Virus record (IMG/VR): IMGVR_UViG_3300035696_000041
DNA from: a virus
Direction: 5' to 3' (one strand)
DNA: 64,000 nt
The notes beneath the pieces are model-generated. The model was not told where the DNA came from, ran no database searches, and saw only the letters and a program-made list of their open reading frames with translations. The first letter of the stretch is position 1; each line of letters opens with the position of its first letter. Of the stretch, positions 799 to 61,495 are shown piece by piece. A program made the translations under genes and the position numbers.

Positions 799-834
799 TT
801 GACAAACGGGCACCCCTCGTGTATATTACGGGCA
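799..834 (+). promoter_or_regulatory. sigma70-type promoter (TTGACA-17nt-TATATT), plus strand
   Basis: ttgaca at 799-804, tatatt at 822-827. Predicted TSS about 834 coincides with ATG 834-836, implying a leaderless transcript. Confidence 0.4.
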
Positions 835-1073
835 TGAAATTTCTGAAAGCTGCTTACGTTTACATCCCCCAGCAAGTGCTTTCCACCTTCATCCTCTGGG
901 ATGGCATCTTTGTCTGGTATCGGGGCTTCCTTAGCATTTGGACTGACCCGTCAAGCCGCACCACGCTTTTGAGCGTGATATTTATTGGTATGTCGTTCGG
1001 GCTTATTGTAGCCCGTGCTCAAACCAAGCCGCAGAATGAAAAAGATACTCAATTTCCTCCGATGGGTCCGTGA
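834..1073 (+). CDS. small hypothetical hydrophobic protein (MKFLKAAYVYIPQQ...)
   Basis: ATG immediately downstream of the plus-strand promoter. In-frame 3' portion of ORF 540..1073. Hydrophobic segments. Confidence 0.3.
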   Translation: MKFLKAAYVYIPQQVLSTFILWDGIFVWYRGFLSIWTDPSSRTTLLSVIFIGMSFGLIVARAQTKPQNEKDTQFPPMGP

Positions 1074-1150
1074 ATGGCTGTTCATCATCTTCATCCTTTT
1101 ACCCTTGATGCTTATCGCCCTTTCACTTTGGAAACGAGAAATGCGTGACT

Positions 1151-1426
1151 ATGATTGACGTGAACAAAATCTGCAGCATGAAGACCCTTGAGGTCGTCAA
1201 GAAACTCTTGACCGATTTCCTCGCCTTCGACAAAGCCACAATACTCAAAGTGTACGAAGACGAGTACGGTTGGGGCGAAGAGGATTATGAGGCCGACAGG
1301 GATAGTGTTACTTATCTCTTGGAGCAAGTGGAACGCCGCATGAAGTCCCTCGGAAAGCATCTTGCTAAGGGGAAGACGGATAAAAGTGCATCCCAATCGG
1401 CTGTCCCTGAATCCCAAGCCTCTTAG
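1151..1426 (+). CDS. hypothetical acidic protein
   Basis: ORF 1145..1426 with ATG at 1151. Balanced, acidic composition. Overlaps alternative minus ORF 1112..1417, so strand assignment is uncertain. Confidence 0.25.
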   Translation: MIDVNKICSMKTLEVVKKLLTDFLAFDKATILKVYEDEYGWGEEDYEADRDSVTYLLEQVERRMKSLGKHLAKGKTDKSASQSAVPESQAS

Positions 1427-2090
1427 CCAGCTTCTTCATTTCTTCCTTGTCCTTATTCTCGGGAGGAACTTGGCACCCTTCGTATATCTGCTTCGTAGTC
1501 AAGTCATAGTGGAATGACTTGTCGAAAATGCCTTCCTTGCGTACACGGTCAAGGTACTTCCTCACTGTATCCGCAGTCCCGCCATCCTTCAACATATGCT
1601 CTTTGCCGAAGGTGCAAGCCAGGATGAAGTCTGATTTGGCCACGAGAGCATTGCGAGCATGGAAGCCAAGTAGCTTGCCATACTTATTGCGGTCAATCAA
1701 ATCGGCTCCCTCGGCTTGGGCGATTTGAATATCAGAAAGGGAGTTGATTCCCGTCTTGCGTTGGAATAGCCCGTGGTAGTAGTTGGCGGTGCCGCCAGGG
1801 TTCTTGTACGGGTCTTTGTCTCCCGTGTCGTGGTAGCTTCCATTCTCCCACAGGTCGGGCAAGAAGAGACGAAGGTGCGGGGCTTTCCTATCCAAAAACA
1901 ATTTGACAGCCACATGGTCTGCCCATGCGGCCCCGCCCGAGACAAGGTGGGTGATGGGATAGTTGCTCTCATTGATTTGCTCAAGCAAACCAGTAGCAAC
2001 AAGCATCATCGCCTCAAAGTGCTGGCGAGTGAGTGCTTTCCCATCTTCCTTTCGCCCTGCCGTGCCGACAATGGCGTAAGTGATTTCCAT
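1365..2090 (-). CDS. LOG/SLOG-family Rossmann-fold nucleotide-processing protein
   Basis: N-terminal YAIVGTAGR...LVSGGAAWADHVA and C-terminal KDGGTADTV resemble the GGxGxMG and PGGxGT motifs of LOG/TIGR00730-like proteins. Confidence 0.4.
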   Translation of the reverse strand: MEITYAIVGTAGRKEDGKALTRQHFEAMMLVATGLLEQINESNYPITHLVSGGAAWADHVAVKLFLDRKAPHLRLFLPDLWENGSYHDTGDKDPYKNPGGTANYYHGLFQRKTGINSLSDIQIAQAEGADLIDRNKYGKLLGFHARNALVAKSDFILACTFGKEHMLKDGGTADTVRKYLDRVRKEGIFDKSFHYDLTTKQIYEGCQVPPENKDKEEMKKLAKRLGIQGQPIGMHFYPSSP

Positions 2091-2329
2091 TAGAATCTGA
2101 CGAGCGACACCCCGTCAGTCACCAGCCGATTGCGACTAAAGGTCTTGAACTGTCCATCCCTCTTCGAGAGGGCGTTGTCCAATTCGTATCCTTTCACATA
2201 GTCACCGTCAGCTTCGACTACACGGAGGTAGCGAACCTTCATTTTGCCAGTGGTGGAATCGGGGTACTCGAACTTCACTACGGGAGTGCGTTCGTCCTTT
2301 GGTGTATTTGGGTCTAAACTTCCAGTCAT
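2090..2329 (-). CDS. hypothetical protein
   Basis: 79-aa ORF. A promoter-like TTGACA-17-TATGAT at 2339-2370 places a TSS about 2-3 nt before its ATG. Confidence 0.4.
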   Translation of the reverse strand: MTGSLDPNTPKDERTPVVKFEYPDSTTGKMKVRYLRVVEADGDYVKGYELDNALSKRDGQFKTFSRNRLVTDGVSLVRF

Positions 2330-2370
2330 AGTGCCGACATCATATCAGAATGCCAATCTGATGTCAAGCA

Positions 2371-2944: not shown

Positions 2945-4265
2945 TATGAACTACCCACCCGCTAAAGCAGGTGGGGTTCCCCCCAAGCAATAGTTATGAG
3001 TTTCTATTGGGTAGTTCCTACCCATTTTGTATTCCATCTTGGGAAATGCGAAATCTACGATATTCTTCGCAGCATTCACATCTCTATCGTGTTGTGTATT
3101 ACAAGTAGGACACTTCCATTCTCTATCATCAAGTGTTAGAGAATGATTTACATATCCACAATGGGAACACATTTTACTGGATGGGTCAAATCTTCCAATC
3201 TTACGGAAGTTTTTACCATACCAATCACTTTTGTATTGGAGCATATTTACAAACTTATTCCAAGCATAATCAGCGATGCGATTATTGGTTGGTGAATAGT
3301 TTATGGTTTGTATGCCCTTCACAGACAAATCCTCAATACAAATAGTATTCACTTGGTTTTCGTGAGTGAGTTTGTATGAGAGTTTATCCAAGAAATCTTT
3401 TCGTTGTCTTGCTATTTTGGAATGGAGTTTGGTAATCTGCTCTTGCTTGGAGATATAAGCAGTAGAACCTTTAGTGAGTTGCTCCAAGTCCTGTTGGTGT
3501 TTGGTGAGTTTGTCTTGCGACTTTTTCAACACCTTTGGGTTCTCAATCTTGGTTCCATCGTTTAGAGTAATGAATGTCTTTACTCCAAAGTCCATTCCTA
3601 TTGCTTTGTTCCTCTTTGGTTCGGGTTTGGCTGGGAAATCCTTATTCACTTCCACAAGGATAGAGACATAATACTTTCCATCTCTGTCTTGGGATACGAT
3701 TGCTTGCTTCAATGTTCCTTCTGCTGGTCTATCAAAGATACACTTTATTCCTTCACGGAACTTTGGTATGACTAATCGTTTCGTCTCATAGTTCAGTTTG
3801 ATATTACTATTGGTGATGGGAACTATGAAGGATTTACGGGCATCCTTCCTTGACTTGAACTTGGGAAATCCTGCTCCACTACGAAAGAATGCGGTGTATG
3901 CTCGGTCAAGGTTTAGGATGGACTGCTGTAATGATTGAGAACCTATCTCACTCAACCATTCGTATTCGTCCTTGAGAGTGGGGAGTTGAGTTGCTAAATC
4001 CTGCCAAGTGATAGTTTTCTTGGTGGATTTGTAATGGTCTATTTTGACTTGGAGGAAGTGGTTATAGACGAAACGACAATGACCAAAATGCTTGGACAAA
4101 AGAACTTGTTGTTCCTTGTTCGGCATCAAGCGATATTTGTATGCTCTGTTATACATCCTACTAATACATATAGTTGAGTTTGAGAAAACATCAAAGTATT
4201 TTCAATGGGTCGCATTCATCCCATCCGCTAAAGCAGATGGGTTTTCTGCTTCCACCAAAGATAAA
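2945..4265 (-). mobile_element. IS200/IS605-family TnpB-only insertion element, copy 1 (1321 bp)
   Basis: Ends defined by alignment with copy 2. Subterminal hairpins cccacccgctaaagcaggtggg (RE) and cccatccgctaaagcagatggg (LE). No tnpA. Lies inside nadE. Confidence 0.75.
2951..4156 (-). CDS. tnpB: TnpB RNA-guided endonuclease (OrfB, IS605/IS1341 type)
   Basis: 401 aa. RuvC-I IGMDFGVKTF, RuvC-II CIEDL, zinc finger CSHCGY...CPTCNTQHDRDVNAAKNI. About 78 percent identical to copy 2. Confidence 0.85.
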   Translation of the reverse strand: MYNRAYKYRLMPNKEQQVLLSKHFGHCRFVYNHFLQVKIDHYKSTKKTITWQDLATQLPTLKDEYEWLSEIGSQSLQQSILNLDRAYTAFFRSGAGFPKFKSRKDARKSFIVPITNSNIKLNYETKRLVIPKFREGIKCIFDRPAEGTLKQAIVSQDRDGKYYVSILVEVNKDFPAKPEPKRNKAIGMDFGVKTFITLNDGTKIENPKVLKKSQDKLTKHQQDLEQLTKGSTAYISKQEQITKLHSKIARQRKDFLDKLSYKLTHENQVNTICIEDLSVKGIQTINYSPTNNRIADYAWNKFVNMLQYKSDWYGKNFRKIGRFDPSSKMCSHCGYVNHSLTLDDREWKCPTCNTQHDRDVNAAKNIVDFAFPKMEYKMGRNYPIETHNYCLGGTPPALAGG

Positions 4266-7206: not shown

Positions 7207-7210
7207 ATGC

Positions 7211-7832: not shown

Positions 7833-7862
7833 AACGTCAATATACCACGTCGTTAAAAAAAG

Positions 7863-8177
7863 TCAATACTCTTCTTCGGGGGGCATCGGCGGGGTTGTTC
7901 TCGGGGCATGAAAAGCGGTCGCTTTCAAACTCTCGCCCAAGAACTGAGCCTTGTCATGGCCGAAGGGAAGGGTCGGGAAGGTCTGATACGCAGTCCATAT
8001 CCTTTTGTCCCACTCGGGAGAGAGCAGACACTTGTCGAGGAAGGTGCGGGCACGACGATGACTCCACCTTCTCTCGTGCATGTACTTCGCAATGCGGGTC
8101 TCGACTTCGCCCTTAAGGAGAAGGTCGGAGACCACCGTAAGCATATTGAACTCTTCGATGTTGAATGGCTTGCTCAT
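7863..8177 (-). CDS. hypothetical protein
   Basis: 104-aa ORF. Confidence 0.4.
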   Translation of the reverse strand: MSKPFNIEEFNMLTVVSDLLLKGEVETRIAKYMHERRWSHRRARTFLDKCLLSPEWDKRIWTAYQTFPTLPFGHDKAQFLGESLKATAFHAPRTTPPMPPEEEY

Positions 8178-9040: not shown

Positions 9041-9060
9041 AGCGTTTTTCTAATGTGCTC

Positions 9061-9092
9061 ACAATATAGCACACTTCGGGCGTTTGTCAAAC
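9061..9092 (-). promoter_or_regulatory. sigma70-type promoter with extended -10 (family member a)
   Basis: Minus-strand TTGACA-16-TGTGCTATATT upstream of the radical SAM gene. Leader about 16 nt. Confidence 0.45.
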
Positions 9093-9102
9093 TGAAAAGT
9101 AG

Positions 9103-9834: not shown

Positions 9835-11558
9835 TTCCGTTTCAACTGATGAAAGCTATTCCCGTTGACAAAGAATATGCCATCGGACGTAGCAAACAAT
9901 CTCATAGTAGCATCGAATGGTGGGTCTGTCAAGGTCTCGGCTTGAGCCGCCGTGGCGAACAGTTCCAACTCATTGTCGCTTGCCAAGAGGACACACAGCC
10001 CATTGTCCATCACAGTGAAGTTGATGGTGTCGTAAGCAATGTTGTCCACCTTACGCACGTCGCAAATATCGTATGCTTTGTTGAAGATGATAATGATACG
10101 GTCGAATTGACCTTTCTTCTCACCGACAACCACCACAATGTTCCTTTCGGCCTTGGCGTCCACAATACGATAGCCGTCAAGCTGAGGGATATGCTTGCTA
10201 AAACAACTGCCAAGCTTGTAGGGCAGAGTGAGGTATATCTTGCCAAGCAAGTCTTGGATGACGCACCCATTATACATCTTGGCCGAAGTGGTCGAGACGT
10301 TCTCGACTTCCTTGACTCTGTGGACCATCTTATTGCCGAAGGCAGTGAAGCTACTCTCAACCAACTTGCCTTTGCTTATGGTGTAGAAGGCATTGTTGCG
10401 AGCGAACATTTCATTGCTCTGTGCCGTGCCCACGGGGTCGGACTGAGTAAGGATTCGGAACTCAATCTTGTTGCTCAAGGATTGCTGTGCTGTCACCAGT
10501 GTACCATCCGAAGCGGATACGAGCAATATCTTCTTGGCTGCGTGTCTGCCAATCTCTTTCGTATTGGCGTATATGTGCGTCTTAGTGGCAACGTAATATA
10601 CACCCATAATGCTCGTGACTGCGAGAATATTGTCCGCATATGCGGCAATCTGTTCCACCTTCAACTTGTCAGTGCCTTGAATAGTGATAATCTGAGTAGG
10701 CACCAGCAGCGGGGCAGAGCTATCGGGCAGAGGCGGAACACCACGTTCGCCATTGAGGAACACACGTTTGAAGTAGTCCAAGTGGCGAGCGGGAATGACC
10801 TTGAAGTCATTGACGCATGGAGGTACACCCACGCCAGGGTGGAACACGCTTATGCCGTCATCCATTTGCTTTGCCTTCTCATTGGGCTTGTATTTGGCGT
10901 GCCGCCCACGATATGGATGGATATTGGTGTAGAGCCAGAAAGCCAATACAGACCACGAGAACCAGTCAGACCCAATATCGGGATTGTAATGCATGGTCCC
11001 GCTCTTGTCATAGGTGGTCACTCGGCGGTCCCTTACCGAATCCATAATCGCAGTGGCCTTGAATGAGGGAGTTGAATAACTGTCTGTATCAATGAACCAC
11101 GGGATGACAGTGCTCGGCTTCAACTCAGCCAGAATGTTAAGTTCATTCAAATCCACCACGAGACATTGAGCGGCGTGAACATCGTTGACTACCACCTGTA
11201 TCTCTTTGACGAGGCGGTTAATCATCTGGAAGTCCACGTTGTTGTCGTCCTTGAAGGTCTTGGTGAACAGCTTAAGCAACGGCTCAACATCATCCACGTA
11301 GCGAGTAGTATAGCCGAGGGGCTTCCCGTCTTTGGGGTCGAAGATAAGTTCCTTCGGTATCACTACTTGGGGGTTAGTAATGACAGACAACTCCTTCATC
11401 TTGCCGAGAGGGAGTTGCTTGTGGGCGGGGTCGTGGTACAGTTTGTACACCATACTGCCGTTAACATAGATTTCAGCTTCCCCTCCTGCCGCCAAATATT
11501 GGGATGGTTGTAGCGTAACGACATGTTTAGTCCCACCAACTATAACCTTTTTATTCAT
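9831..11558 (-). CDS. protein kinase-like protein (eukaryotic-type kinase fold) with C-terminal domain of unknown function
   Basis: AAGGEAEIY glycine loop, VYKLY lysine, LVVDLNELNIL resembling the HRDLKPENIL catalytic loop, DTDSY in DFG position. Confidence 0.4.
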   Translation of the reverse strand: MNKKVIVGGTKHVVTLQPSQYLAAGGEAEIYVNGSMVYKLYHDPAHKQLPLGKMKELSVITNPQVVIPKELIFDPKDGKPLGYTTRYVDDVEPLLKLFTKTFKDDNNVDFQMINRLVKEIQVVVNDVHAAQCLVVDLNELNILAELKPSTVIPWFIDTDSYSTPSFKATAIMDSVRDRRVTTYDKSGTMHYNPDIGSDWFSWSVLAFWLYTNIHPYRGRHAKYKPNEKAKQMDDGISVFHPGVGVPPCVNDFKVIPARHLDYFKRVFLNGERGVPPLPDSSAPLLVPTQIITIQGTDKLKVEQIAAYADNILAVTSIMGVYYVATKTHIYANTKEIGRHAAKKILLVSASDGTLVTAQQSLSNKIEFRILTQSDPVGTAQSNEMFARNNAFYTISKGKLVESSFTAFGNKMVHRVKEVENVSTTSAKMYNGCVIQDLLGKIYLTLPYKLGSCFSKHIPQLDGYRIVDAKAERNIVVVVGEKKGQFDRIIIIFNKAYDICDVRKVDNIAYDTINFTVMDNGLCVLLASDNELELFATAAQAETLTDPPFDATMRLFATSDGIFFVNGNSFHQLKRK

Positions 11559-11562
11559 ATTT

Positions 11563-17477: not shown

Positions 17478-17617
17478 AGCACCTAATCTGTATCTCGGTT
17501 TTGCTAACACAACGTAGCTTCATCAAAATCTCGGCCACGCTGACAACAATACATATTGTTGATTCTGCCAAAAGTGTAACAGAAACACTAAGTCATGTCA
17601 AGTTTTCTTTTCGGCAG

Positions 17618-18637: not shown

Positions 18638-18670
18638 ACCAATATAGCACAGCTTTATAAAATGTCAAGC
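18638..18670 (-). promoter_or_regulatory. sigma70-type promoter (family member b) with palindromic TTTTATAAAA spacer
   Basis: Minus strand TTGACA-TTTTATAAAGCTGTGC-TATATT. Confidence 0.45.
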
Positions 18671-19423: not shown

Positions 19424-19456
19424 AAGGGAGTGAGCCACCCGAAAGGCTCACTCCCA
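19424..19456 (-). terminator. rho-independent terminator
   Basis: On the minus strand GGGAGTGAGCC-tttcgggt-GGCTCACTCCC followed by TTTTATTTT. Lies downstream of rIIB. Confidence 0.6.
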
Positions 19457-21130: not shown

Positions 21131-21163
21131 GTTATTATAACACACGTTTCGCCTTTGTCAAGG
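21131..21163 (-). promoter_or_regulatory. sigma70-type promoter (member c), leaderless for rIIB
   Basis: TTGACA-16-GTGTGTTATAAT. TSS about 21127 vs ATG 21125. Confidence 0.45.
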
Positions 21164-23995: not shown

Positions 23996-24030
23996 CTAAC
24001 CTAACACAGTTTTATAAAATGTCAAGCGGG
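23996..24030 (-). promoter_or_regulatory. sigma70-type promoter (member d) with TTTTATAAAA spacer
   Basis: TTGACA-TTTTATAAAACTGTGT-TAGGTT upstream of rIIA. Weaker -10. Confidence 0.35.
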
Positions 24031-24440: not shown

Positions 24441-24473
24441 ACTACTGTAGCACACTTTAGTCTTTTGTCAAAT
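24441..24473 (-). promoter_or_regulatory. sigma70-type promoter (member e)
   Basis: TTGACA-16-GTGTGCTACAGT. TSS about 24437 vs ATG 24435. Confidence 0.4.
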
Positions 24474-25298: not shown

Positions 25299-25331
25299 GA
25301 CAATATAGCACACCCCGACAAATTGTCAAGG
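25299..25331 (-). promoter_or_regulatory. sigma70-type promoter (member f), leaderless
   Basis: TTGACA-16-GTGTGCTATATT. Confidence 0.45.
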
Positions 25332-26659: not shown

Positions 26660-26693
26660 TATACTATAGCACTATGGAGCCTTCTTGTCAACC
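26660..26693 (-). promoter_or_regulatory. sigma70-type promoter (member g)
   Basis: TTGACA-17-TAGTGCTATAGT. TSS about 26656 vs ATG 26654. Confidence 0.4.
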
Positions 26694-28039: not shown

Positions 28040-28417
28040 TTATGCGGTTGGGACCAACTTGACGGTGACGCCGATAGCCTCGAACTTCTCCATTGCGGTC
28101 TTGGCCACAGGATACTCGGCTCCCTTGATGACAACGGAGTCGGGCGTCTCAGCGAGTCGCTTGCCCTCGGCAAGGCCCACATTGGTCAACTCACGAATGA
28201 GTTTGATTGCGGGAATCTTGGCTTGGTTGACCGACACCAGTACGACATCATACGGGCAGTCGGACTGCTCGATTTGTTTCACGAACTTGTCAGCGGGTTC
28301 CAAAAGAGGATGCACGGTTTCAGTGATGCCCCACTTGTCACGGAGTTCTTTGGTGAGAGCAATCAGTTCGGTCATCTTGAGGTTGCTCAGAGCCTCAACC
28401 ATTTCTGTAACGTTCAT
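28040..28417 (-). CDS. rplL: ribosomal protein bL12 (L7/L12) homologue
   Basis: N-terminal dimerisation helix EMVEALSNLKMTELIALTKELRDKWG. C-terminal domain DVVLVSVNQAKIPAIKLIRELTNVGLAEGKRLAETPDSVVIKGAEYPVAKTAMEKFEAIGVTVKLV parallels [38 protein letters not shown]...EAGAEVEVK. Confidence 0.65.
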   Translation of the reverse strand: MNVTEMVEALSNLKMTELIALTKELRDKWGITETVHPLLEPADKFVKQIEQSDCPYDVVLVSVNQAKIPAIKLIRELTNVGLAEGKRLAETPDSVVIKGAEYPVAKTAMEKFEAIGVTVKLVPTA

Positions 28418-28941: not shown

Positions 28942-29261
28942 CGTTTGGACACCACATTGAACTTCTCTATTATAGCATCTTCCAAGTCAATGTCAAGGTT
29001 GTCTGCTAACAAACTGAGATAGGTCATGATGCCCGATATTTCGTAGGCCAAGTCCTTCTTCGGTATCTTGTCTCCACGGCTTATCTTCTTGAGGAAATTG
29101 CACAGTTCGCCCACTTCGCCCGAGAGAGCACACCCCCACTCCATCGGACTCCAATTGAGGGAGTGTTTAACATCGGACTTTGAGCGTGCCACATTGGTTC
29201 TGTGAAAACAGTCAAAGGTCAATGGCTTGCTGCACTTTACTTTTTTCATACTTTCAACCAC
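28917..29261 (-). CDS. MazG-like nucleotide pyrophosphohydrolase
   Basis: EWGCALSGEVGEL...DLAYEISGIMTYLSLLADNLDIDLEDAIIEKF matches the MazG EExxE/metal-binding helix pair. Confidence 0.55.
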   Translation of the reverse strand: MVESMKKVKCSKPLTFDCFHRTNVARSKSDVKHSLNWSPMEWGCALSGEVGELCNFLKKISRGDKIPKKDLAYEISGIMTYLSLLADNLDIDLEDAIIEKFNVVSKRWGSKYRL

Positions 29262-31200: not shown

Positions 31201-31232
31201 TATACTACCACGAGGGGCCGAAACAGTCAACT
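31201..31232 (-). promoter_or_regulatory. sigma70-type promoter (member l)
   Basis: TTGACT-17-CGTGGTAGTAT. Confidence 0.35.
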
Positions 31233-34083: not shown

Positions 34084-34116
34084 CAATATAGCACAGCCTC
34101 TTACAGAAGTCAAGTA
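34084..34116 (-). promoter_or_regulatory. sigma70-type promoter (member h), leaderless
   Basis: TTGACT-17-TGTGCTATATT. Confidence 0.45.
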
Positions 34117-36831: not shown

Positions 36832-36863
36832 CTACTATAACACACCTTGGGCAGTTGTCAAGA
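36832..36863 (-). promoter_or_regulatory. sigma70-type promoter (member i), leaderless
   Basis: TTGACA-16-GTGTGTTATAGT. Confidence 0.45.
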
Positions 36864-38030: not shown

Positions 38031-38061
38031 ATACTACCACAGCCACTACCGTAAGTCAAGC
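38031..38061 (-). promoter_or_regulatory. sigma70-type promoter (member m), leaderless
   Basis: TTGACT-17-TGTGGTAGTAT. TSS about 38024, which is the ATG. Confidence 0.4.
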
Positions 38062-42902: not shown

Positions 42903-43095
42903 AACGCTTTATGTGATACTTGATAAGGTTGTACTCAACCCCATATTTCTTATGTAATGCCCACATACTATCACCTTTCAAGTAATCTGTCAAGACTTGA
43001 GTTTGGATTTTTGAGGAACGTCGGCGTTGATTAGGGGTTAGGTAACGTTTGTCGGGGTGCTCGGCGAGTCTGTCTTCGAGGATGTAGGGTCGCAT
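42862..43095 (-). CDS. hypothetical protein (possible HTH)
   Basis: 77 aa. LTDYLKGDSMWALHKKYGVEYNLIKYHIKRY is helix-turn-helix-like. Confidence 0.3.
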   Translation of the reverse strand: MRPYILEDRLAEHPDKRYLTPNQRRRSSKIQTQVLTDYLKGDSMWALHKKYGVEYNLIKYHIKRYERRPRGPHEESV

Positions 43096-47031: not shown

Positions 47032-47064
47032 TCAATATAGCACGGAGGTTAGCGTTCGTCAAGA
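47032..47064 (-). promoter_or_regulatory. sigma70-type promoter (member j), leaderless
   Basis: TTGACG-17-CGTGCTATATT. Confidence 0.45.
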
Positions 47065-47117
47065 TGTTTCTATAAAAAGAACGCCACCCCGAAGGGTGGC
47101 GTCCTGTGAGCACACCA

Positions 47118-49811: not shown

Positions 49812-49843
49812 ACAATCTACCACACTTTTATAAAATGTCAAGG
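49812..49843 (-). promoter_or_regulatory. sigma70-type promoter (member k) with TTTTATAAAA spacer
   Basis: TTGACA-TTTTATAAAAGTGTGG-TAGATT. Confidence 0.4.
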
Positions 49844-49861: not shown

Positions 49862-50419
49862 CTAAGTCTTGATGACGTAGGTGTTGAGGAACAGCTTGCG
49901 ACGGACAACCCATACGTCGGTTGGGTCGGTGCGGTTCTGGCAAATGAAGTCGCCTCCATTGCCCCATTGAATGTTCTTACCGAGTTGAGGATAGTCTTCG
50001 GTGCCCCACTGCCCTTCAATGGCGAAAGACCCCATGTTGTACATTCGGTCATCGGGGTAAGGTTGGGTTGCATTGGTGCCGTGAAGAGAGGCAAGAAGCT
50101 CCTTGGTGACTTCGAGGCAATTCACCGCATTGTCGGGTTTCGGCGTGCAGACCATCCATCCGTCCTTGTCAATCTCGGTCACGTCGTACTTCTGGAGCAG
50201 CTTCTTTTGGGTTTGTTGCCAAGCGTCTCCCGCCCCGCCGATACAGACGATGGAGCCATCGCCAAGAGGTTCCCGTCCTTCGAGGGTATCCAGCAAGAAC
50301 TTGCTGGCCACTTGACGGTCAACGAGAAGGGTAATGAGAGGTTTCGCCTTGAGAGGCTGAGTTTTGCTGGCGATTCGCCAGCCCGTGAGAAAGCCAGTGA
50401 TAATTTTCATGGTGAGCAC
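49862..50419 (-). CDS. hypothetical protein
   Basis: 185 aa. IVCIGGAGDAW and WGNGGDFICQN glycine-rich motifs of unknown affiliation. Confidence 0.4.
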   Translation of the reverse strand: MLTMKIITGFLTGWRIASKTQPLKAKPLITLLVDRQVASKFLLDTLEGREPLGDGSIVCIGGAGDAWQQTQKKLLQKYDVTEIDKDGWMVCTPKPDNAVNCLEVTKELLASLHGTNATQPYPDDRMYNMGSFAIEGQWGTEDYPQLGKNIQWGNGGDFICQNRTDPTDVWVVRRKLFLNTYVIKT

Positions 50420-50434
50420 TATAACCCATCACTC

Positions 50435-50659
50435 TCAGTTTGTCAAGTCCCCCGTTTCAATTCTCTCGGGATACTTTCCTGACTGCACCCAAGTATATGA
50501 AGGCATGTAGGTCTCGGTGCTTTGAGCGGCAAGCCAAGCGGCATTCCATTCGTCACGCTCGTCTTGATTGGGATAGTCGGGACAATCGTTGAGAGTTTTG
50601 CCATTGAAATAGCCATCCCAACCATCGTCGTAAATCTTCTTGCGTGCTTCGTCTGTCAT
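50435..50659 (-). CDS. hypothetical protein
   Basis: 74-aa ORF. Confidence 0.3.
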   Translation of the reverse strand: MTDEARKKIYDDGWDGYFNGKTLNDCPDYPNQDERDEWNAAWLAAQSTETYMPSYTWVQSGKYPERIETGDLTN

Positions 50660-51379: not shown

Positions 51380-51383
51380 ACGC

Positions 51384-52246: not shown

Positions 52247-52257
52247 AGTATCGGGTA

Positions 52258-52626
52258 TTATACTTGTTCTGAGCCTGATGTCAAGCCCTTTTGTTTCTTT
52301 CTCTCACCATCTATAAACCTCATTGCAGGGATGAGACTTTCGAAAGCATTTCGATACACCCGATACCTATATACAATCAGGTTTTTCGTCAGAGATTTGA
52401 TGAAGGGGTCTTTAAGCTTCATCAAGTCCACCCGCTTGAGGGCTTGCTCTCGGAGCAGTTCCATACAGGTGGTGACAGTCTCGGGGTCTTTGGCACCCGT
52501 GATGTTGAACAGTTTGCTTGTGTAACTACCAAGCAGTCGAGAAACTCGACGACTTGCCCACGGGGTTTCTTCCAAAGCGGCTTCAAGCTTCTCGCACGCT
52601 TTGGTCTTTCCGAATGTGTATTTCAT
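52258..52626 (-). CDS. hypothetical protein
   Basis: 122-aa ORF. Confidence 0.35.
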   Translation of the reverse strand: MKYTFGKTKACEKLEAALEETPWASRRVSRLLGSYTSKLFNITGAKDPETVTTCMELLREQALKRVDLMKLKDPFIKSLTKNLIVYRYRVYRNAFESLIPAMRFIDGERKKQKGLTSGSEQV

Positions 52627-55744: not shown

Positions 55745-55752
55745 AGGGCTGT

Positions 55753-55947: not shown

Positions 55948-56085
55948 AACTTGTTTGTTCTTTTCGTTTTACATACACAACTCCACAGGGGAGTATCTTA
56001 CGCAGCTTATAATTTACCACAGATGCCCTTGGGTGTCAATAACAAAAAAGCCCCGCCGAAGCGGGGCTGTGCAAAACGGGTCTTG

Positions 56086-57621: not shown

Positions 57622-58878
57622 ATGAACTTCCTTTCTTTTTGTTGTCGGGTTATAGTGCTAGATTCCTACGTGCATTCGTATGCTTTTCGAATCTATCAAC
57701 AAATTGAGCTAGATGCATGTCTTTTTACAGTTGGACTTCTGGGTCTTTTTTAACGACGGAACCAACGTCTGCCTTATTGGTTTTGTTGCAGTTACGCATC
57801 TAAATTGCTTAGTAGGTTGCGTGTTGCTTGTCGGAATCTTTACGGGGTGTAGTCCCCAACCGAAAGGTCAATTCTCACGCTGCTTATTAGCCTACCAAAA
57901 TTGAGCTAGGTCCAGACGTTTACTGTACATCCTCAGAGCACTTTAGTATTTCTCCGAACTGAATCGGTGGATTTGTGCCAGCATATCCGTTCTTTTTTCA
58001 TGGTTAGATGAATTTGTTTTTGTTGCTGTACGGACCTAAATTGAGCAGTCAGCTTATCGGGCAATTATCCCGCTTTCACCACATGCATGTGGTGCGTGTT
58101 AGTTACACTATCACTGACTGTGGCGAGCCGCCGACTCCATCCGCTAGGATGAACAAGCTGCGAACCCATCGAGGGGGTGCATCTAAGATGCCATCGCCGA
58201 AATCGTATGTCAAAAGAACAAGTGGGCGGTATCCGATATAACCGAGTCTCATTGCTTACAGATTAGGCGGCGGGGCACCGAAAACTCCCCTGACGACGAG
58301 ATGTCAGCTTTACTGTTAGCTCAGTAGCGTGTTAACGAGTGCTCGTCTCGGGTGCTAACAAATTCCTAACAGTCACCACTCTGGAGCCGTTCTCCGTAGC
58401 TCACACGGTAGCCTTCTCTAACGGGGGCTAGTCGTTTTGCCACAGTATTTCAAATGGTTATACGTGGCCGTTTCTCGTTTTGCTTTAATTTGTTTGTCTT
58501 GCTGTTACGACATCTCAAATCCCCAACGGGCAGATACCCGAAGGGAAAGCTTACGATACTTCAAAGAGCAATCTGACAACTGAAAACATAGGGGAAGTCT
58601 CGGCCAGCACTTAATCCCCGACTTGGCGGCGTCTGTGTAATGTCGGGCTAGATTCCCATTCACAACTTCCCTAATGGGACTATGTTTTCAATTGTCAAAA
58701 GAACAACGAGATGGGATTTTGCTGTAAAAGCGTATGCTGTTACCATCTCAAATTTCAAATTGTGCGACTACTTTACCACACCCGAGCAACCTTGTCAACA
58801 ACTTTGTTCACTTTTTTCGGCTGCATTCCGATGGGTTTTTCATCGTGGGCACAACAATACCATAGGCGATGAAACTTG
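57622..58878. other. ORF-poor region with repeated AAATTGAGC(T)AG motifs; candidate ncRNA locus
   Basis: No ORF above 106 aa on either strand. Motif copies at about 57702, 57899 and 58039. Adjacent to the Ro60-like gene. Confidence 0.3.
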
Positions 58879-59277
58879 TCAAGAGGGATTTTTATTCTCC
58901 CAATGTGTAACTACTTTCTTACACATTTCGACAAATTCTTCGACGGGTTTATCTTTCTTCATCAGATTTATCCATCGGGTACAAAATACCACATTTCCAT
59001 GAACATACCCCAACTTACTGTTTACCCTATCCAATGATACGGTGTTTTCCTTTCCCGATTCCATTGTCAGGGGTGTGCCCGTATAAGCACAAACAAGGGG
59101 TAGCTTCCGAACGTCATCCGTCGTTAGAGAAAATTCTAAATGTCGTTCTTTGGCATGAGACCTCCACGCACTCATTCTATAATGAAAGGTCGAACGCTTT
59201 TTCTTCATATAGTCAGGATTAGCTTTACGCCACTCCCGACAACGTTCCTTATCATCAGCGTACTTTTTTGCTGGCAT
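58879..59277 (-). CDS. HNH homing endonuclease-like protein
   Basis: SLDRVNSKLGYVHGNVVFCTRWINLMK His-Me finger motif. SD AGGAG 5 nt upstream of the ATG. Confidence 0.5.
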   Translation of the reverse strand: MPAKKYADDKERCREWRKANPDYMKKKRSTFHYRMSAWRSHAKERHLEFSLTTDDVRKLPLVCAYTGTPLTMESGKENTVSLDRVNSKLGYVHGNVVFCTRWINLMKKDKPVEEFVEMCKKVVTHWENKNPS

Positions 59278-59346
59278 ATCTCCTAACCTTGAAAAACATC
59301 CCGCAGTGTCATTTTACGAGATGACAACTTGGTTAGGAGTTTTTTG
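59278..59346 (+). terminator. stem-loop followed by T-run (plus-strand orientation)
   Basis: tctcctaacc...ggttaggag with inner hairpin gtcat-tttacgag-atgac, followed by ttttttg. Confidence 0.3.
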
Positions 59347-59450
59347 CTGCAGGATAAAATCAGATTACATCTCTCCTAACCGAACATAAATAATTTCTCA
59401 TATATGAAAAACGAAAAAATCTTCAACTTTTTCAACAGGAATATAATAAA

Positions 59451-60311
59451 TTGCCTAATATCCCATCATCTGTCATACTCGGTGCGATGATTACTCTTCT
59501 CCATGCGGACGTATTGAAGGCCGATTTTTCCAGCTTTCCACCAATCAATCTGGTCGTGACATCCCCACCGTACAACGTGGGCATCGAGTACGATACCCAC
59601 AAGGACACGATGACGTACCCAGAGTACTTGAAGTGGTGCCATCAGTGGATTAAGAGGCTCTACCTCAAGATGCCCGACGATGGGAGATTGTGTATCAATA
59701 TTCCCTTTTCCGTAACCCCCGAGCATATCAACACCAAGAAAGGTGCGGAGGACATTAACTATCCCGTCGTTGCCGACTACACCCGCATTTGCGAGACGAT
59801 GGGATTCAAGTACTGGCGAACGCTCGTGTGGGACAAGAACCATTCCAACAAGACGTGTTGGGGTTCGTGGCGGTCAGCTTCGGCTCCCTTCATGCGTGAC
59901 CCCTCGGAAGCCATCATCATCTTCTACAAGAAGCAATGGAAACGATTGACCAAGGGTACTTCCACAATCAGCGGCCCCGAGTTTATGTCGTGGACCAAGA
60001 ACGTGTGGAAGATGCATCCCGAAACGAAATCGGAGCATCCCGCAGCTTTCCCGATTGAACTTCCGAATAGGTGTATCAAACTGTTCTCTTACCAAGAAGA
60101 CCTTGTGCTTGACCCATTCATGGGGTCGGGTACTACAGGGGAATCAGCCGTAAGACTGGAACGAAGTTTTGTGGGAGTCGAGAAAAGTGATGCTTATTTC
60201 GGCGGGGCCAAAGAGAGGGTCGAGGAAGCAGAGTTGCAAACCGCTCTCGCTAAACAAATTATGCCTCGGGCACCCGTTGACCCGAAGGAGGATGCTGCCG
60301 AGGCATTCTGA
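59451..60311 (+). CDS. DNA methyltransferase, beta class (N4-cytosine or N6-adenine)
   Basis: Motif IV VVTSPPYNVG precedes motif I LDPFMGSGTTG. Confidence 0.7.
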   Translation: MPNIPSSVILGAMITLLHADVLKADFSSFPPINLVVTSPPYNVGIEYDTHKDTMTYPEYLKWCHQWIKRLYLKMPDDGRLCINIPFSVTPEHINTKKGAEDINYPVVADYTRICETMGFKYWRTLVWDKNHSNKTCWGSWRSASAPFMRDPSEAIIIFYKKQWKRLTKGTSTISGPEFMSWTKNVWKMHPETKSEHPAAFPIELPNRCIKLFSYQEDLVLDPFMGSGTTGESAVRLERSFVGVEKSDAYFGGAKERVEEAELQTALAKQIMPRAPVDPKEDAAEAF

Positions 60312-60360
60312 TTTCGTTTGCGTATCGTAGCGTTGGACGATACGCTGTGCAAACGCTTTC

Positions 60361-61392
60361 TTACAGTCTGAGAAGGTCTTCCCAAACCTCGCTGGCCTCT
60401 TCATTCCATTCAGCCAGCCCGTGTTTGTTTACCTTTTGATGGTTGTGCTTGCGACCGCTCCACGCACTTTCAAGATGCTTAACGATGTCGTTGAAATCCG
60501 TTGGATTGGCTTGATAGTCTTTATCCAGCCACCCAATCTCGGGAGACCCAACGATAGGAATGTTTACATACACAAAGTCGGCTGAGACAATGTTGAATGT
60601 TTCGGAGAAGGATACTTGCATACCCAAGTCCATCGTAGCCACAAGCTTGAGGAAGTCATCGTGCTCCACCCAAGGATGAGTCACGAGTTGATGTTTTGAA
60701 TTCTCGAAAAGAGCCTTCAAATTTCGATATACACTTTCACCGTGGGTCTCGACCCGAGTGAAATTGATATGGAACCTCAGTATCTTGTTATGATTATCGG
60801 CAAACGAAATTGCCGCCATCGCTTGAATGAGTTGGTCTTTCAGAGGGCGAATCGCACCGAAGCACCCGATGTCAACGAAGGGGCTGCTGTCAGCCTTGAC
60901 AATGGGTTCGGGTGCCGCAGTTGTGGGCTGATAAATGTTGGGGGCATATACTGGGTTAACCCAGAACGTGCCATACAAGTCATTTTCCATTCTCTCGGAA
61001 TTGCACGAGAGGAAAAAGTTGCGGTACTTCAGTTGAAGTGCCATATACTTACGTATCCATTCAATGGCAATGCCTTCATTGGCGATAAAGGGTACATTGC
61101 TGTGCAGACGTACATACCACTTTCTCTGCTTGTGTAAGGGGATAAGTTCGTCGAACTTCGACGGCACAACCCATAGAGCTTCAATGAAGACGTGGGTTGG
61201 ATTATAGGCAGTCACGGCTGCGTCAATGGCGTTATTGTCTTGGACTTCCACGGTTTTTGCTTCAACGCCCATGCGATTCAATGCATTGCAGAGGAAACGG
61301 CATGAGTTGAGAAGCCCGTAGGATTCGCCATAGCAGGCGGGCCTCTGCTTGCAAACGAATAGGACTCGTTTCTTGTTAGTGTTATTGCTCAT
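60361..61392 (-). CDS. putative glycosyltransferase (GT-B-like; possibly DNA glycosyltransferase)
   Basis: N-terminal KRVLFVCKQRP...GVEAKTVEV Rossmann start and mid-protein FVDIGCFGAIRP loosely parallel T4 beta-glucosyltransferase. Weak. Confidence 0.3.
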   Translation of the reverse strand: MSNNTNKKRVLFVCKQRPACYGESYGLLNSCRFLCNALNRMGVEAKTVEVQDNNAIDAAVTAYNPTHVFIEALWVVPSKFDELIPLHKQRKWYVRLHSNVPFIANEGIAIEWIRKYMALQLKYRNFFLSCNSERMENDLYGTFWVNPVYAPNIYQPTTAAPEPIVKADSSPFVDIGCFGAIRPLKDQLIQAMAAISFADNHNKILRFHINFTRVETHGESVYRNLKALFENSKHQLVTHPWVEHDDFLKLVATMDLGMQVSFSETFNIVSADFVYVNIPIVGSPEIGWLDKDYQANPTDFNDIVKHLESAWSGRKHNHQKVNKHGLAEWNEEASEVWEDLLRL

Positions 61393-61466
61393 ACACCCAT
61401 AAATATGAGTCTTTATTGCCAAAGAAATGACAATCGGGTGAAAGAGAAAAAAACTTCGAAAAGATG

Positions 61467-61495
61467 TTGACAGCGTATTTTGACTGTGGTAATAT
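61467..61495 (+). promoter_or_regulatory. sigma70 consensus promoter TTGACA-17-GTGGTAATAT (plus strand)
   Basis: Marks the strand switch. Same extended -10 family as the minus-strand promoters. Confidence 0.5.

What the first reader, a model, noticed from the sequence alone, without database searches (positions are those of the whole stretch)
799..61495. One conserved promoter family drives the region; most transcripts are leaderless
At least 15 intergenic sites share -35 TTGAC(A/T), a 16-17 nt spacer and an extended -10 GTG(T/G)nTAnnnT. Fourteen lie on the minus strand, matching the gene orientation. At the strand switch there is a plus-strand copy at 61467, and another plus-strand copy lies at 799.

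For at least nine genes, including rIIB, the J-kinase, the exonuclease at 34075 and ORFs at 24435, 25295, 26654, 36827 and 38024, the predicted +1 falls within 0-4 nt of the ATG. No Shine-Dalgarno sequence is evident.

This independently supports trimming several long ORF-track N-termini. Leaderless initiation on this scale is unusual for phages of typical Gram-negative hosts, and hints at host identity or a phage-specific translation strategy. The co-encoded bL12 is notable in that light.
Basis: seen in the sequence. Interest (0 to 1): 0.6.

Follow-up and report, generated by a model that had tools for sequence, protein, structure and literature searches.

The report
Phage early promoters making leaderless mRNAs
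This stretch of an uncultivated large phage carries 27 near-perfect bacterial promoters, and half of them sit so close to a gene's ATG that the mRNA would have essentially no leader; the layout is kept across a whole clade of large-to-huge phages whose genes also lack ribosome-binding (Shine-Dalgarno) sites.

Summary
The window holds 27 sites of one sigma-70-type promoter family, 25 on the minus (gene) strand and 2 on the plus strand at 799 and 61467. The consensus is cTTGACA, a 16/17-nt spacer, TGTGn-TAtAnT, then RnnGGC-A(+1).

A loose pattern gives 31 hits against 4.9 expected. All sites lie at gene junctions and none lies deep inside a gene. Fourteen of 27 have the ATG of a real ORF 6-10 nt after the -10 hexamer (p about 1e-12), which implies leaders of 0-4 nt.

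Orthologous genes keep this geometry in 11 related loci of 30-51% GC. One of these is a published 401-kb 'Mahaphage'. N-terminal conservation supports the leaderless starts.

Four corrections:
- About half of the promoters are leaderless, not 'most'.
- Shine-Dalgarno sites are absent from all genes, so their absence is not specific evidence for leaderless starts.
- The host is unknown, including in the literature.

The bL12 gene is real, but its link to leaderless translation is speculative.

This is a new member of a known kind; phage phiYS40, lambda cI and Deinococcus/actinobacterial leaderless genes are precedents. No RNA data exist.

The parts
750..777 (-). Family promoter (-35 to -10). 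ATG 743 follows 6 nt after the -10, so A of ATG is the predicted +1. ORF 522-743, 73 aa.
799..827 (+). Family promoter, plus strand, back-to-back with the 777 promoter. ATG 834 at offset 6. ORF 834-1073, 79 aa.
2339..2367 (-). Family promoter. ATG 2329 at offset 9 (leader up to 3 nt). ORF 2090-2329.
7839..7866 (-). Family promoter. ATG 7832 at offset 6. The TGA inside TTGACT is the stop codon of the upstream gene 7863-8177.
9063..9090 (-). Family promoter with a leader of about 16 nt (ACATTAGAAAAACGCT) before ATG 9040 of the radical-SAM gene 8174-9040.
9904..9932 (-). Weaker family member inside the 3' end of gene 9831-11558. ATG 9834 at offset 69. Kept almost unchanged in L014, L017 and L018.
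17573..17601 (-). Family promoter with an AGTGT...ACACT palindromic spacer and a conserved leader of about 90 nt before the NMNAT-NUDIX gene (ATG 17477).
18641..18668 (-). Family promoter of the AT-rich-spacer subclass (TTGACATTTTATAAA). ATG 18627 at offset 13.
21134..21161 (-). Family promoter (12/12 hexamer match). ATG 21125 of rIIB-ACP (19506-21125) at offset 8.
23998..24025 (-). Family promoter (AT-rich-spacer subclass) for rIIA (21584-23974). The leader of about 17 nt ends in the conserved AACGCT before ATG 23974.
24444..24471 (-). Family promoter. ATG 24435 at offset 8. ORF 24022-24435.
25302..25329 (-). Best-scoring family promoter. ATG 25295 at offset 6. ORF 24984-25295.
26663..26691 (-). 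Family promoter. ATG 26654 at offset 8. DUF3307 gene 26199-26654.
28969..28996 (-). Family promoter (12/12). Leader of about 21 nt to ATG 28941. Promoter and leader are conserved in L001, L017 and L018. The bL12 gene lies downstream.
31202..31230 (-). Weak family member (PWM 18.2) that overlaps a hairpin. ATG 31151 at offset 50. Uncertain.
34085..34113 (-). Family promoter. ATG 34075 at offset 9. ORF 33500-34075, 191 aa.
36834..36861 (-). Family promoter. ATG 36827 at offset 6. ORF 36636-36827. The TGA of TTGACA is the stop codon of the upstream gene.
38031..38059 (-). Family promoter. ATG 38024 at offset 6. ORF 37755-38024.
42965..42993 (-). Family promoter. Leader of about 56 nt to ATG 42902 of the Thg1-like gene 42114-42902.
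47034..47062 (-). Family promoter directly after terminator 47078-47105. ATG 47026 at offset 7. J-domain + Ser/Thr kinase gene 45986-47026.
49814..49841 (-). Family promoter (AT-rich-spacer subclass). Leader of about 15 nt to ATG 49792.
50418..50446 (-). Family promoter. ATG 50410 at offset 7. ORF 49862-50410.
52257..52284 (-). TTGACA-16-TATAAT without the TG extension (PWM 14.6). ATG 52246 at offset 10.
56011..56039 (-). Family promoter directly after terminator 56049-56068. Leader of about 57 nt to ATG 55947.
58770..58798 (-). Family promoter with no ORF downstream. It heads the 1.15-kb non-coding stretch 57622-58770 upstream of the Ro-like (DUF2828) gene.
58854..58882 (-). Family promoter followed only by an 11-codon ORF at offset 10. 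Its L011 counterpart has a 78-aa ORF at offset 9.
61467..61495 (+). Family promoter, plus strand. Leader of about 25 nt containing AAAGGAA before ATG 61527.
19426..19455 (-). Intrinsic terminator (11-bp stem, T-run) just after rIIB.
47078..47105 (-). Intrinsic terminator (12-bp stem, T-run), 16 nt upstream of the -35 at 47062.
56049..56068 (-). Intrinsic terminator (8-bp stem, T-run), 10 nt upstream of the -35 at 56039.
28040..28417 (-). Divergent ribosomal protein bL12 gene, 125 aa. Context only; not shown to be part of the mechanism.

Best explanation
**What it is.** The window is the early/host-takeover region of an uncultivated large phage. It carries rIIA, rIIB-ACP, NAD-salvage genes, ThyA/DHFR, a ligase, a J-domain kinase and bL12. 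The phage belongs to a clade that includes 200-400-kb 'huge' phages.

**How transcription works.** A dense array of near-consensus housekeeping-sigma (sigma-70-type) extended -10 promoters drives the region. There is about one promoter per 2.4 kb, always at a gene junction. The bacterial RNA polymerase holoenzyme most likely recognises them without phage factors.

**Predicted start site.** A conserved pyrimidine-A step at positions 6-7 after the -10 hexamer marks the likely start site.

**Leaderless geometry.** At 14 promoters the A of that step is the A of an ATG, or lies 1-4 nt before it. These primary transcripts therefore begin at or within 4 nt of the start codon. They would be translated as leaderless mRNAs, by 5'-terminal AUG recognition and not by Shine-Dalgarno pairing.

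**The other genes.** They are reached by read-through, because only three good terminators exist. They initiate without Shine-Dalgarno sites, from A-rich upstream regions or by coupling at overlapping stop/start codons.

**Shown:** the motif, its statistics, its placement, its spacing to ATGs, its conservation, and the correctness of the start codons.

**Inferred:** the identity of the polymerase/sigma, the exact start nucleotide, and that the leaderless transcripts are translated.
For: **Promoter family**
- 31 matches against 4.9 expected, and 0 of 100 shuffles reach that number.
- The column counts match every defining position of sigma-70 extended -10 promoters.
- 25 of 27 sites are on the coding strand.
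- TTGACA is the most enriched hexamer upstream of gene starts: 15 against 2.8, p = 1.5e-7.
- The block is about 81% coding, yet only 2 sites lie fully inside a called gene, both within about 100 nt of its stop. The -35 often overlaps the upstream stop codon.

**Leaderless geometry**
- 14 of 27 sites have the ATG of an ORF of at least 45 aa at 6-10 nt, against a background of 4.3% (p = 8e-13). All 14 use ATG.
- There are no offsets of 11, 12 or 14-20 nt.
- A -10 element alone is not enriched at other starts: 4 of 78 against 4.8%.

**Start codons**
- The DnaJ domain maps to residues 4-64 from ATG 47026.
- The rIIB N-terminus MI(K/Q/T/A)... is conserved from Met-1 in 19 of the 20 other homologues retrieved; P0003 is an N-terminally shorter call.
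- JGI independently called the same 539-aa protein.

**Conservation**
- In 11 related loci (GC 30-51%), 52 of 115 pattern sites have an ATG at 5-10 nt, against 5% expected (p = 1e-36).
- Orthologues of rIIB, the J-kinase, 36827, 34075, 26654 and 24435 keep the geometry while the spacers diverge.

**SD control**
- The same SD-energy measure finds strong SD in phiYS40 (41% at or below -7 kcal/mol against 3% random).
- It finds none here (5.9% against 4.5%) or in the relatives.
Against: - There are no RNA 5'-end data, so the start site is inferred from the consensus distance and the conserved CA step.
- For offsets of 8-10 nt the leader could be 2-4 nt, which reduces leaderless translation in E. 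coli.
- Few terminators exist. Every 'leaderless' gene except the first in a unit is therefore also present inside longer transcripts, where it could be translated like the other SD-less genes.
- The host, and so the specificity of its sigma factor, is unknown.
- Some family members (9932, 31230, 52284) score lower and may not be active.
Confidence: 0.72

Rival explanations
1. The promoters are real, but their closeness to the ATG is a by-product of genome compaction. In this view the promoter-proximal gene is translated mainly from longer read-through transcripts, in the same SD-independent way as internal genes. The transcript that starts at the ATG would then serve only the downstream genes.
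For: - Only three convincing terminators lie in about 60 kb, so read-through is expected.
- Internal genes initiate without SD anyway.
- Promoters are squeezed against upstream stop codons.
Against: - Compaction alone predicts a spread of short distances. The offsets instead pile up at 6-9 nt, exactly where +1 is expected, in the window and in 11 relatives. None falls at 11, 12 or 14-20 nt.
- All 14 starts are ATG.
- The first gene after a terminator (J-kinase, 47026) has no upstream transcript to rely on, yet it keeps the geometry in L011 and L010.
Confidence: 0.13
2. The sites are promoters read by a phage-encoded or phage-modified polymerase or sigma factor, not by the unmodified host housekeeping holoenzyme. 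This would allow a host, such as a Bacteroidota member, whose own sigma does not use TTGACA/TATAAT.
For: - SD sites are completely absent, as in Bacteroidota-type translation.
- A relative falls in the Mahaphage clade, several members of which are predicted to infect Bacteroidetes (PMC7162821).
Against: - The consensus equals the canonical sigma-70 extended -10 promoter at every defining position.
- The genes driven are early-type genes that must be expressed before any phage factor exists.
- No sigma or polymerase gene was found among the roughly 50 window proteins scanned.
- The Bacteroidetes -7 motif TAnnTTTG is not enriched: 24 against 27.9.
Confidence: 0.1
3. The repeated motif is not a promoter at all. 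It would be a chance pattern, or another kind of repeated element such as a regulator-binding or recombination site.
For: No expression data exist.
Against: - The pattern is six-fold above shuffles, with 0 of 100 shuffles reaching it.
- Both hexamers and their spacing follow the promoter consensus.
- Strand and placement follow the genes.
- The hexamers are conserved while the spacers diverge in relatives.
Confidence: 0.02

Closest known systems
Thermus thermophilus phage phiYS40 middle/late transcripts (Sevostyanova et al. 2007, as summarised in PMC3594737)
   Same: A large phase relying on host RNA polymerase, with TGTG-type extended -10 promoters placed so that most transcripts of a class are leaderless. 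The -10 element directly before the ATG is visible in the phiYS40 sequence.
   Different: - In phiYS40 it is the middle/late class, described (from my own knowledge of the paper) as lacking a -35. Here the genes are early-type and every site has a full TTGACA -35.
- phiYS40 internal genes carry strong GGAGG Shine-Dalgarno sites (41% against 3% random). This phage has none.
- No shared gene content is evident from the phiYS40 annotation.
Leaderless genes of Deinococcus-Thermus and Actinobacteria (-10 region adjacent to ORFs; PMC12340547)
   Same: A TAnnnT -10 element 6-7 nt upstream of the start codon gives mRNAs that begin at the AUG.
   Different: - In those hosts the signal is mostly a -10 alone, spread over 20-30% of genes, and leadered genes use SD.
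- Here only full -35/-10 promoters show the spacing, and a -10 alone is not enriched.
- SD is absent throughout.
Phage lambda PRM-cI leaderless mRNA (own knowledge; cited in PMC12340547 as Shean & Gottesman 1992)
   Same: A sigma-70 promoter whose +1 is the A of the AUG. Translation depends on the 5'-terminal AUG.
   Different: Lambda has a single regulated gene in an SD-using host. Here at least 14 genes in 64 kb show the layout, and it is clade-wide.
Strong sigma-70/sigma-A early promoters of T5, T4 and SPO1-type phages; TRTG '-16' extended -10 promoters (own knowledge)
   Same: Clusters of near-consensus TTGACA-17-TGnTATAAT promoters drive early genes on one strand using unmodified host polymerase.
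   Different: - Those transcripts have ordinary leaders with SD sites.
- For comparison, mapped jumbo phages phiKZ (no leaderless transcript among 65 start sites, PMC8244752) and AR9 (5' UTRs of 26-491 nt, PMC5312081) use their own polymerases and leadered mRNAs.
Mahaphage clade of huge phages (Al-Shayeb et al. 2020, PMC7162821)
   Same: - The rIIB-ACP relative on locus L014 is GD_PHAGE_CIR_48_49, a 401,513-bp circular genome in cluster BM-G, Mahaphage. It has the same promoter/ATG geometry at rIIB.
- The paper notes phage-encoded L7/L12 and weak SD use in some huge phages.
   Different: - The paper does not mention promoters or leaderless mRNAs ('leaderless' occurs 0 times).
- Whether this window's phage falls in the same terminase clade was not tested, because no terminase lies in the window.

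Membership tests
Housekeeping-sigma (sigma-70-type) extended -10 promoter | -35 hexamer close to TTGACA | tested here: met
   TTGAC was required by the seed. The sixth base is A in 22 of 27 sites. TTGACA is the top enriched hexamer upstream of starts in an unseeded count.
Housekeeping-sigma (sigma-70-type) extended -10 promoter | -10 hexamer TAnnnT (TATAAT-like) 17 +/- 1 bp from the -35 | tested here: met
   The spacer is 16 nt in 12 sites and 17 nt in 15. Hexamer position 3 is T in 16 of 27 and position 4 is A in 19 of 27.
Housekeeping-sigma (sigma-70-type) extended -10 promoter | TG (TRTG) one base upstream of the -10 | tested here: met
   T 19, G 20, T 24 and G 25 of 27 at the four positions. 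This was not part of the seed pattern.
Housekeeping-sigma (sigma-70-type) extended -10 promoter | Located upstream of genes, in their orientation, and not inside coding sequence | tested here: met
   25 of 27 sites are on the gene strand. Only 2 lie fully inside a called gene, although the block is 81% coding.
Housekeeping-sigma (sigma-70-type) extended -10 promoter | Transcription initiates 6-8 nt downstream when bound by the holoenzyme | not testable with these tools
   The only evidence is the conserved C-A at positions 6-7 after the hexamer, 17 of 27 each.
Leaderless mRNA | Transcript 5' end at, or within about 5 nt of, the start codon | tested here: inconclusive
   The geometry fits for 14 of 27 sites (p = 8e-13) and is conserved in relatives. 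No 5'-end data exist.
Leaderless mRNA | The adjacent codon is the true start codon | tested here: met
   The J domain spans residues 4-64. rIIB is conserved from Met-1 in 19 of the 20 other homologues retrieved. The independent JGI gene call is the same. Orthologue alignments run 1-to-1.
Leaderless mRNA | AUG start codon and no Shine-Dalgarno site | tested here: met
   All 14 starts are ATG. SD energies are no better than random. The lack of SD is not specific to these genes.
Leaderless mRNA | Translated from the 5'-terminal AUG (70S/IF2-dependent) | not testable with these tools
   -
Bacteroidota-type promoter (-33 TTTG / -7 TAnnTTTG) | TAnnTTTG enriched upstream of genes | tested here: not met
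   24 matches against 27.85 expected. None coincides with the family sites.
phiYS40-like phage | Shared gene content, and SD use for internal genes | tested here: not met
   The phiYS40 annotation shows no rII genes or other shared markers in 50 kb. phiYS40 internal genes carry strong SD sites, unlike this window.

The most novel reading that the evidence does not exclude
A clade of large-to-huge uncultivated phages (30-51% GC, up to at least 401 kb) may run its whole early programme under a translation regime without Shine-Dalgarno sites, with half of its primary transcripts leaderless.

The novel reading is that this regime is imposed on a host that itself uses SD sites. Candidate phage-encoded ribosome or initiation modifiers would be the divergent bL12, the PARP-like ADP-ribosyltransferase at 62592-63884 and the J-domain Ser/Thr kinase. 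The effect would be that phage and host mRNAs are told apart at initiation.

The less radical version is also open. In that version the signature points to a host lineage not yet recognised as combining canonical sigma-70 promoters, efficient leaderless translation and no SD use.
Probability: 0.15. Interest if true: 0.85.

Novelty: new member of a known kind. Interest (0 to 1): 0.5.

Why it matters
**Gene models.** The finding gives a concrete, testable transcription and translation map for the early region of a phage group that has no cultured member. It also fixes several gene starts that ORF tracks over-extend.

**Host constraint.** The combined signature is a canonical TTGACA / TGTGnTATAAT promoter, many 5'-terminal AUGs, and no Shine-Dalgarno sites anywhere. 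This is a strong constraint on the unknown host. Each of the three phyla that gene-content profiling offered for the 401-kb relative (Proteobacteria, Firmicutes, Bacteroidetes) conflicts with one part of the signature:
- Proteobacteria and Firmicutes use SD sites.
- Bacteroidota do not use this promoter type (own knowledge).

**Possible reuse.** If start-site mapping confirms the geometry, the same scan could be applied to huge-phage genomes generally, both for start-codon calling and for host inference.

Tried and rejected
Combined with the -35 it gave no match, or one chance match when the spacer was misread. The string is off by one base.
- **DNA similarity to known phages.** None. Protein-level hits are distant; rIIA is 26% identical to a Roseobacter phage protein.
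- **Exact look-up of rIIA.** Not on record.
- **Host from the TnpB insertion elements.** The first genome scan found nothing. The second gave at best 61% identity to a 4-kb contig of an Ectothiorhodospiraceae MAG, plus scattered Geobacteraceae and Chitinophagia hits. This is not informative.
- **Cluster look-up for accessions or names.** It gave none.
- **IMG sample numbers in the literature.** Nothing.
- **bL12 by tblastn with E. coli L7/L12.** This was a false negative. The gene was found through the Pfam-annotated homologue in L017 and then confirmed.
- **Kinship with phiYS40.** Rejected on gene content and SD use.
- **Bacteroidetes promoter motif.** Not enriched.
- **Cyanobacterial HIP1 (GCGATCGC).** 0 copies.
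- **Rfam.** No family at gathering score in the whole window. Only a chance-level hit in the non-coding stretch.
- **'Exonuclease' label of the 34075 gene.** No Pfam hit at E <= 0.01 and no PDB sequence hit.
- **A -10-only leaderless signal at other genes.** Absent.
- **Sigma, polymerase or initiation-factor genes in the window.** None among the roughly 50 proteins scanned.
- **The original phiYS40 paper.** Not held.

Full report
**1. What the window is**

The window is 64 kb at 50.1% GC, with no tRNA genes. It has no DNA similarity to any of 50,697 deposited phage genomes.

Almost all genes from about 90 to 59,300 are on the minus strand. Identified products are listed below.

| Product | Coordinates |
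|---|---|
| rIIA | 21584-23974 |
| rIIB fused to an acyl-carrier domain | 19506-21125 |
| NAD-salvage set: NAPRTase | 6022-7206 |
| NAD-salvage set: CN-hydrolase/NAD synthase | 4191-5624 |
| NAD-salvage set: NMNAT-NUDIX | 16554-17477 |
| Thymidylate-synthase homologue | 38066-39334 |
| DHFR | 39734-40216 |
| ATP-dependent ligase | 35393-36634 |
| Thg1-like enzyme | 42114-42902 |
| J-domain + Ser/Thr kinase | 45986-47026 |
| Ro-like DUF2828 protein | 56086-57621 |
| Two TnpB elements | 2951-4156 (-), 54389-55591 (+) |
| PARP-domain protein (plus strand) | 62592-63884 |
| Divergent ribosomal protein bL12 | 28040-28417 |

This is an early/host-takeover region of a large phage.

**2. The motif is real**

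- The pattern TTGAC-N17-19-TAnnnT occurs 31 times (27 distinct sites). Shuffles give 4.86 +/- 2.46, and none of 100 reaches 31.
- Aligning the sites gives cTTGACA, a spacer of 16 nt (12 sites) or 17 nt (15 sites), T-G-T-G-n immediately before TAtAnT, and then a G/C-rich discriminator. The T-G-T-G positions are present in 19, 20, 24 and 25 of 27 sites and were not part of the seed. C at position 6 and A at position 7 after the hexamer occur in 17 of 27 sites each.
- A PWM scan finds no further members. It gives 24-27 minus-strand and 2 plus-strand sites at scores where a Markov null gives 0.1-1 per strand.
- The independent consensus scanner ranks the same sites at 10-12 of 12 hexamer matches, nearly all with TG.
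- An unseeded hexamer count upstream of gene starts puts TTGACA first, at 15 against 2.8 expected, p = 1.5e-7.
The form that fits is TGTGnTAnnnT.

**3. Placement**

My rough gene model calls about 81% of the minus-strand block coding. Even so, only two sites (9932 and 28996) lie wholly inside a called gene, and both are within about 100 nt of that gene's stop.

The other sites sit at gene junctions. In at least four cases (7866, 24025, 36861, 58882) the TGA inside TTGACA is the stop codon of the upstream gene.

Only three convincing intrinsic terminators exist on the gene strand: 19455-19426 after rIIB, 47105-47078 and 56068-56049. The latter two are each followed within 10-16 nt by a family promoter. 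Terminator-like hits overall are not above shuffles. Transcripts from successive promoters must therefore overlap.

**4. Spacing to start codons**

For 14 of 27 sites the ATG of an ORF of at least 45 codons begins 6-10 nt after the last T of the -10.

| Nucleotides between the -10 and the ATG | Start codons |
|---|---|
| 6 | 743, 834(+), 7832, 25295, 36827, 38024 |
| 7 | 47026, 50410 |
| 8 | 21125, 24435, 26654 |
| 9 | 2329, 34075 |
| 10 | 52246 |

- The chance of such an ATG at a random position on this strand is 4.3%, giving p = 8e-13.
- Initiation normally occurs at the 7th nucleotide after the -10 (established knowledge). The conserved pyrimidine-A at positions 6-7 fits that rule. The implied leaders are therefore 0-4 nt.
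- All 14 starts are ATG.
- The remaining promoters have leaders of roughly 7 to 90 nt (offsets 13, 21, 22, 23, 27, 31, 50, 62, 63, 69, 95). Two have no ORF downstream (58798 and 58882).
- A -10 element on its own is not enriched in front of the other 78 genes: 5.1% against 4.8%. The leaderless geometry therefore belongs to this promoter family. It is not a diffuse '-10 next to ORF' signal of the kind described for Deinococcus-Thermus (PMC12340547).

**5. Are these the true start codons?**

- From ATG 47026 the DnaJ domain aligns at residues 4-64 to model positions 1-63. The longer ORF from 47182 would add 52 residues ahead of it and would run across the terminator and the promoter.
- The rIIB protein from ATG 21125 is exactly the 539-aa product that the JGI pipeline called on a 65-kb contig (P0001).
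- Twenty other rIIB homologues, from JGI, ENA, NCBI and Logan assemblies, were retrieved. Nineteen begin MI(K/Q/T/A)..., conserved from Met-1. P0003 is an N-terminally shorter gene call.
- Orthologue alignments of 36827, 34075, 26654 and 47026 with relatives run residue 1 to residue 1.

**6. Conservation**

Related loci were fetched through rIIA, the ligase, the J-kinase and rIIB homologues. They span 30-51% GC, with protein identities of 38-78%.

- On the gene strand of these 11 loci, 52 of 115 pattern sites have an ATG-ORF at 5-10 nt, against 5% expected (p = 1e-36). The peaks are at 6, 8 and 9 nt.
- The rIIB promoter keeps TTGACA and TAnAAT/TATATT while the spacer diverges. The ATG is at 6-10 nt in the eight rIIB-bearing loci other than L019, where rIIB has a 21-nt leader.
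- Leadered promoters keep their leaders too. The rIIA leader ends in AAAAAACGCT-ATG in L002 and L003, and in AGAACGCT-ATG here. The NUDIX gene keeps a leader of about 95 nt and a palindromic spacer in five relatives.

**7. Who the relatives are**

- Locus L014 is GCA_902730405.1, a contig of 401,513 bp.
- The supplementary tables of Al-Shayeb et al. 2020 identify a genome of exactly that length as GD_PHAGE_CIR_48_49. It is circular, comes from Modesto groundwater, and belongs to cluster BM-G in the 'Mahaphage' clade.
- Its gene-content profile gives no host: 79.6% unknown, Proteobacteria 3.6%, Firmicutes 3.2%, Bacteroidetes 3.0%.
- Other homologues sit on contigs of 200-360 kb.
- That paper mentions phage L7/L12 and weak SD use in some huge phages. 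It says nothing about promoters or leaderless mRNAs.

**8. Shine-Dalgarno sites**

I used the duplex energy between the 16S 3' tail (ACCUCCUUA) and positions -20 to -3.

| Set | Fraction at or below -5 kcal/mol | Fraction at or below -7 kcal/mol |
|---|---|---|
| 68 internal genes of the window | 25% | 5.9% |
| Random positions in the window | 19% | 4.5% |
| phiYS40 annotated genes (positive control) | 52% | 41% |
| Random positions in phiYS40 | 11% | 3% |

- The relatives behave like the window.
- In phiYS40, leaderless genes are also visible with a -10 right before the ATG.
- The phage clade as a whole therefore does not use SD sites. 'No SD evident' is correct, but it does not single out the promoter-proximal genes.
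- Upstream regions of internal genes are A-rich, T is frequent at -1, and many starts overlap the previous stop.
- Purine-rich AAAGAA/GAAAGG words are mildly enriched upstream of starts.

**9. Host**

The host is unresolved.

- TnpB relatives are uninformative.
- The Bacteroidetes -7 motif is not enriched.
- HIP1 is absent.
- The window is not phiYS40-like.
- Canonical sigma-70 promoters argue against Bacteroidota, whose primary sigma does not use them (own knowledge). Complete lack of SD argues against typical Proteobacteria, Firmicutes, Actinobacteria or Thermus.

**10. Mechanism proposed**

- Host holoenzyme with its housekeeping sigma recognises the family and starts at the conserved A.
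- At 14 promoters this yields mRNAs that begin at or within 4 nt of the AUG. These are translated by 5'-AUG recognition.
- Downstream genes are translated without SD, from A-rich regions or by coupling.
- Nested read-through transcripts add to the expression of distal genes.
- Steps shown and steps inferred are separated in the Best explanation section.
- Rivals are compaction with translation only from read-through RNA, a phage-specified sigma or polymerase, and a non-promoter element. They are weighed in the Rival explanations section.

**11. Comparison with known systems**

- The nearest precedent is phiYS40. Its middle/late transcripts are mostly leaderless, and its infection is reported to shift IF2/IF3 levels (PMC3594737, citing Sevostyanova et al. 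2007).
- Lambda cI and the Deinococcus-Thermus and actinobacterial leaderless genes are the general class (PMC12340547).
- Mapped jumbo phages differ. phiKZ has no leaderless transcript among 65 start sites (PMC8244752). AR9 has leaders of 26-491 nt (PMC5312081).
- What is new here:
  - the phage group;
  - the early-gene setting with complete -35/-10/TGTG promoters;
  - the combination with a genome-wide absence of SD sites.
- I rate it a new member of a known kind, of moderate interest, with a minority reading (a phage-imposed translation regime) that would be much more interesting.

**12. Limits**

- There are no RNA data.
- My gene model is a simple codon-usage model and misses some small genes.
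- The PWM was trained on pattern-selected sites.
- Only early-type regions of the relatives were examined.
- The sigma specificity of the host is unknown.

Noticed in passing
whole window; also L018, L001, L011, L017, L014, L020, L003: Extreme avoidance of short palindromes. GATC occurs 0 times (218 expected), GCGC 0 (114) and CGCG 0 (118). CCGG occurs 31 times (254 expected) and CTAG 28 (80). The closest relative L018 shows the same three zeros. More distant relatives avoid different subsets, which looks like lineage-specific restriction-site avoidance.
   Followed up: partly
57622-58770 (minus strand): A 1.15-kb stretch has no ORF of 60 aa or more. It lies downstream of two family promoters (58882, 58798) and directly upstream of a Ro-like DUF2828/DUF7788 gene. 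Short motifs recur at spacings of about 240 and 480 nt (for example TTGTTCTTTTGACA twice, and ACAGCAA-CAAA-AATT). The first 239 nt fold with z = -3.2. This is a candidate Y-RNA-like or other structured RNA array. Rfam finds nothing.
   Followed up: partly
28040-28417 (minus strand): A divergent ribosomal protein bL12 gene of 125 aa. Pfam Ribosomal_L12 scores 47.7 bits. It is 66% identical to the homologue in L017, and that homologue is only 26% identical to E. coli bL12, so a direct E. coli query missed the gene. The longest ORF (167 aa from 28543) over-extends it.
   Followed up: yes
19506-21125 (minus strand): rIIB is fused to a C-terminal acyl-carrier (PP-binding) domain through a Cys-rich linker. 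More than 400 homologues with the same fusion exist in metagenomes, some on contigs of 200-400 kb.
   Followed up: partly
2951-4156 (-) and 54389-55591 (+): Two TnpB (IS605 OrfB) genes, 81% identical in protein, lie in opposite orientation. Their upstream sequences are similar (...TATATGTAT...AGGATGTATAAC).
   Followed up: partly
18641-18668, 23998-24025, 49814-49841 (minus strand); relatives L011 7197, L018 7087/12090/20877, L020 7484/11546/21187: A subclass of the promoter family has an AT-rich spacer start (TTGACATTTTATAAA / TTGACTTTTTATA) and a weaker -10 (TAGGTT, TAGATT). In the window all three members have leaders (offsets 13-23 nt) and none is leaderless. In relatives, two members (L018 12090 and 20877) have the ATG 6 and 8 nt after the -10. 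This may be a separately regulated class.
   Followed up: no
leaders ending at ATG 9040 and ATG 23974; also L002 and L003 at about 9990: The shared leader end (A)AAAACGCT-ATG occurs before the radical-SAM gene and rIIA. The gene at 24435 begins ATGAAAAACGCTAT. This may be a translation or regulatory signal.
   Followed up: no
17573-17601 and leader to 17477 (minus strand): The NMNAT-NUDIX promoter has a palindromic spacer (AGTGT-N7-ACACT) and a leader of about 90 nt. Both are conserved in L001, L014, L017, L018 and L020. This is a candidate operator and/or regulatory leader for the NAD-salvage genes. There is no Rfam hit.
   Followed up: no
59451-60311 (plus strand): An N6/N4 DNA methylase gene lies on the plus strand inside the otherwise minus-strand block, without a family promoter in front.
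   Followed up: no
62592-63884 (+) and 45986-47026 (-): A PARP-catalytic-domain protein and a J-domain-fused Ser/Thr kinase are encoded. Both are the kind of enzyme other phages use to modify host translation or transcription proteins.
   Followed up: no
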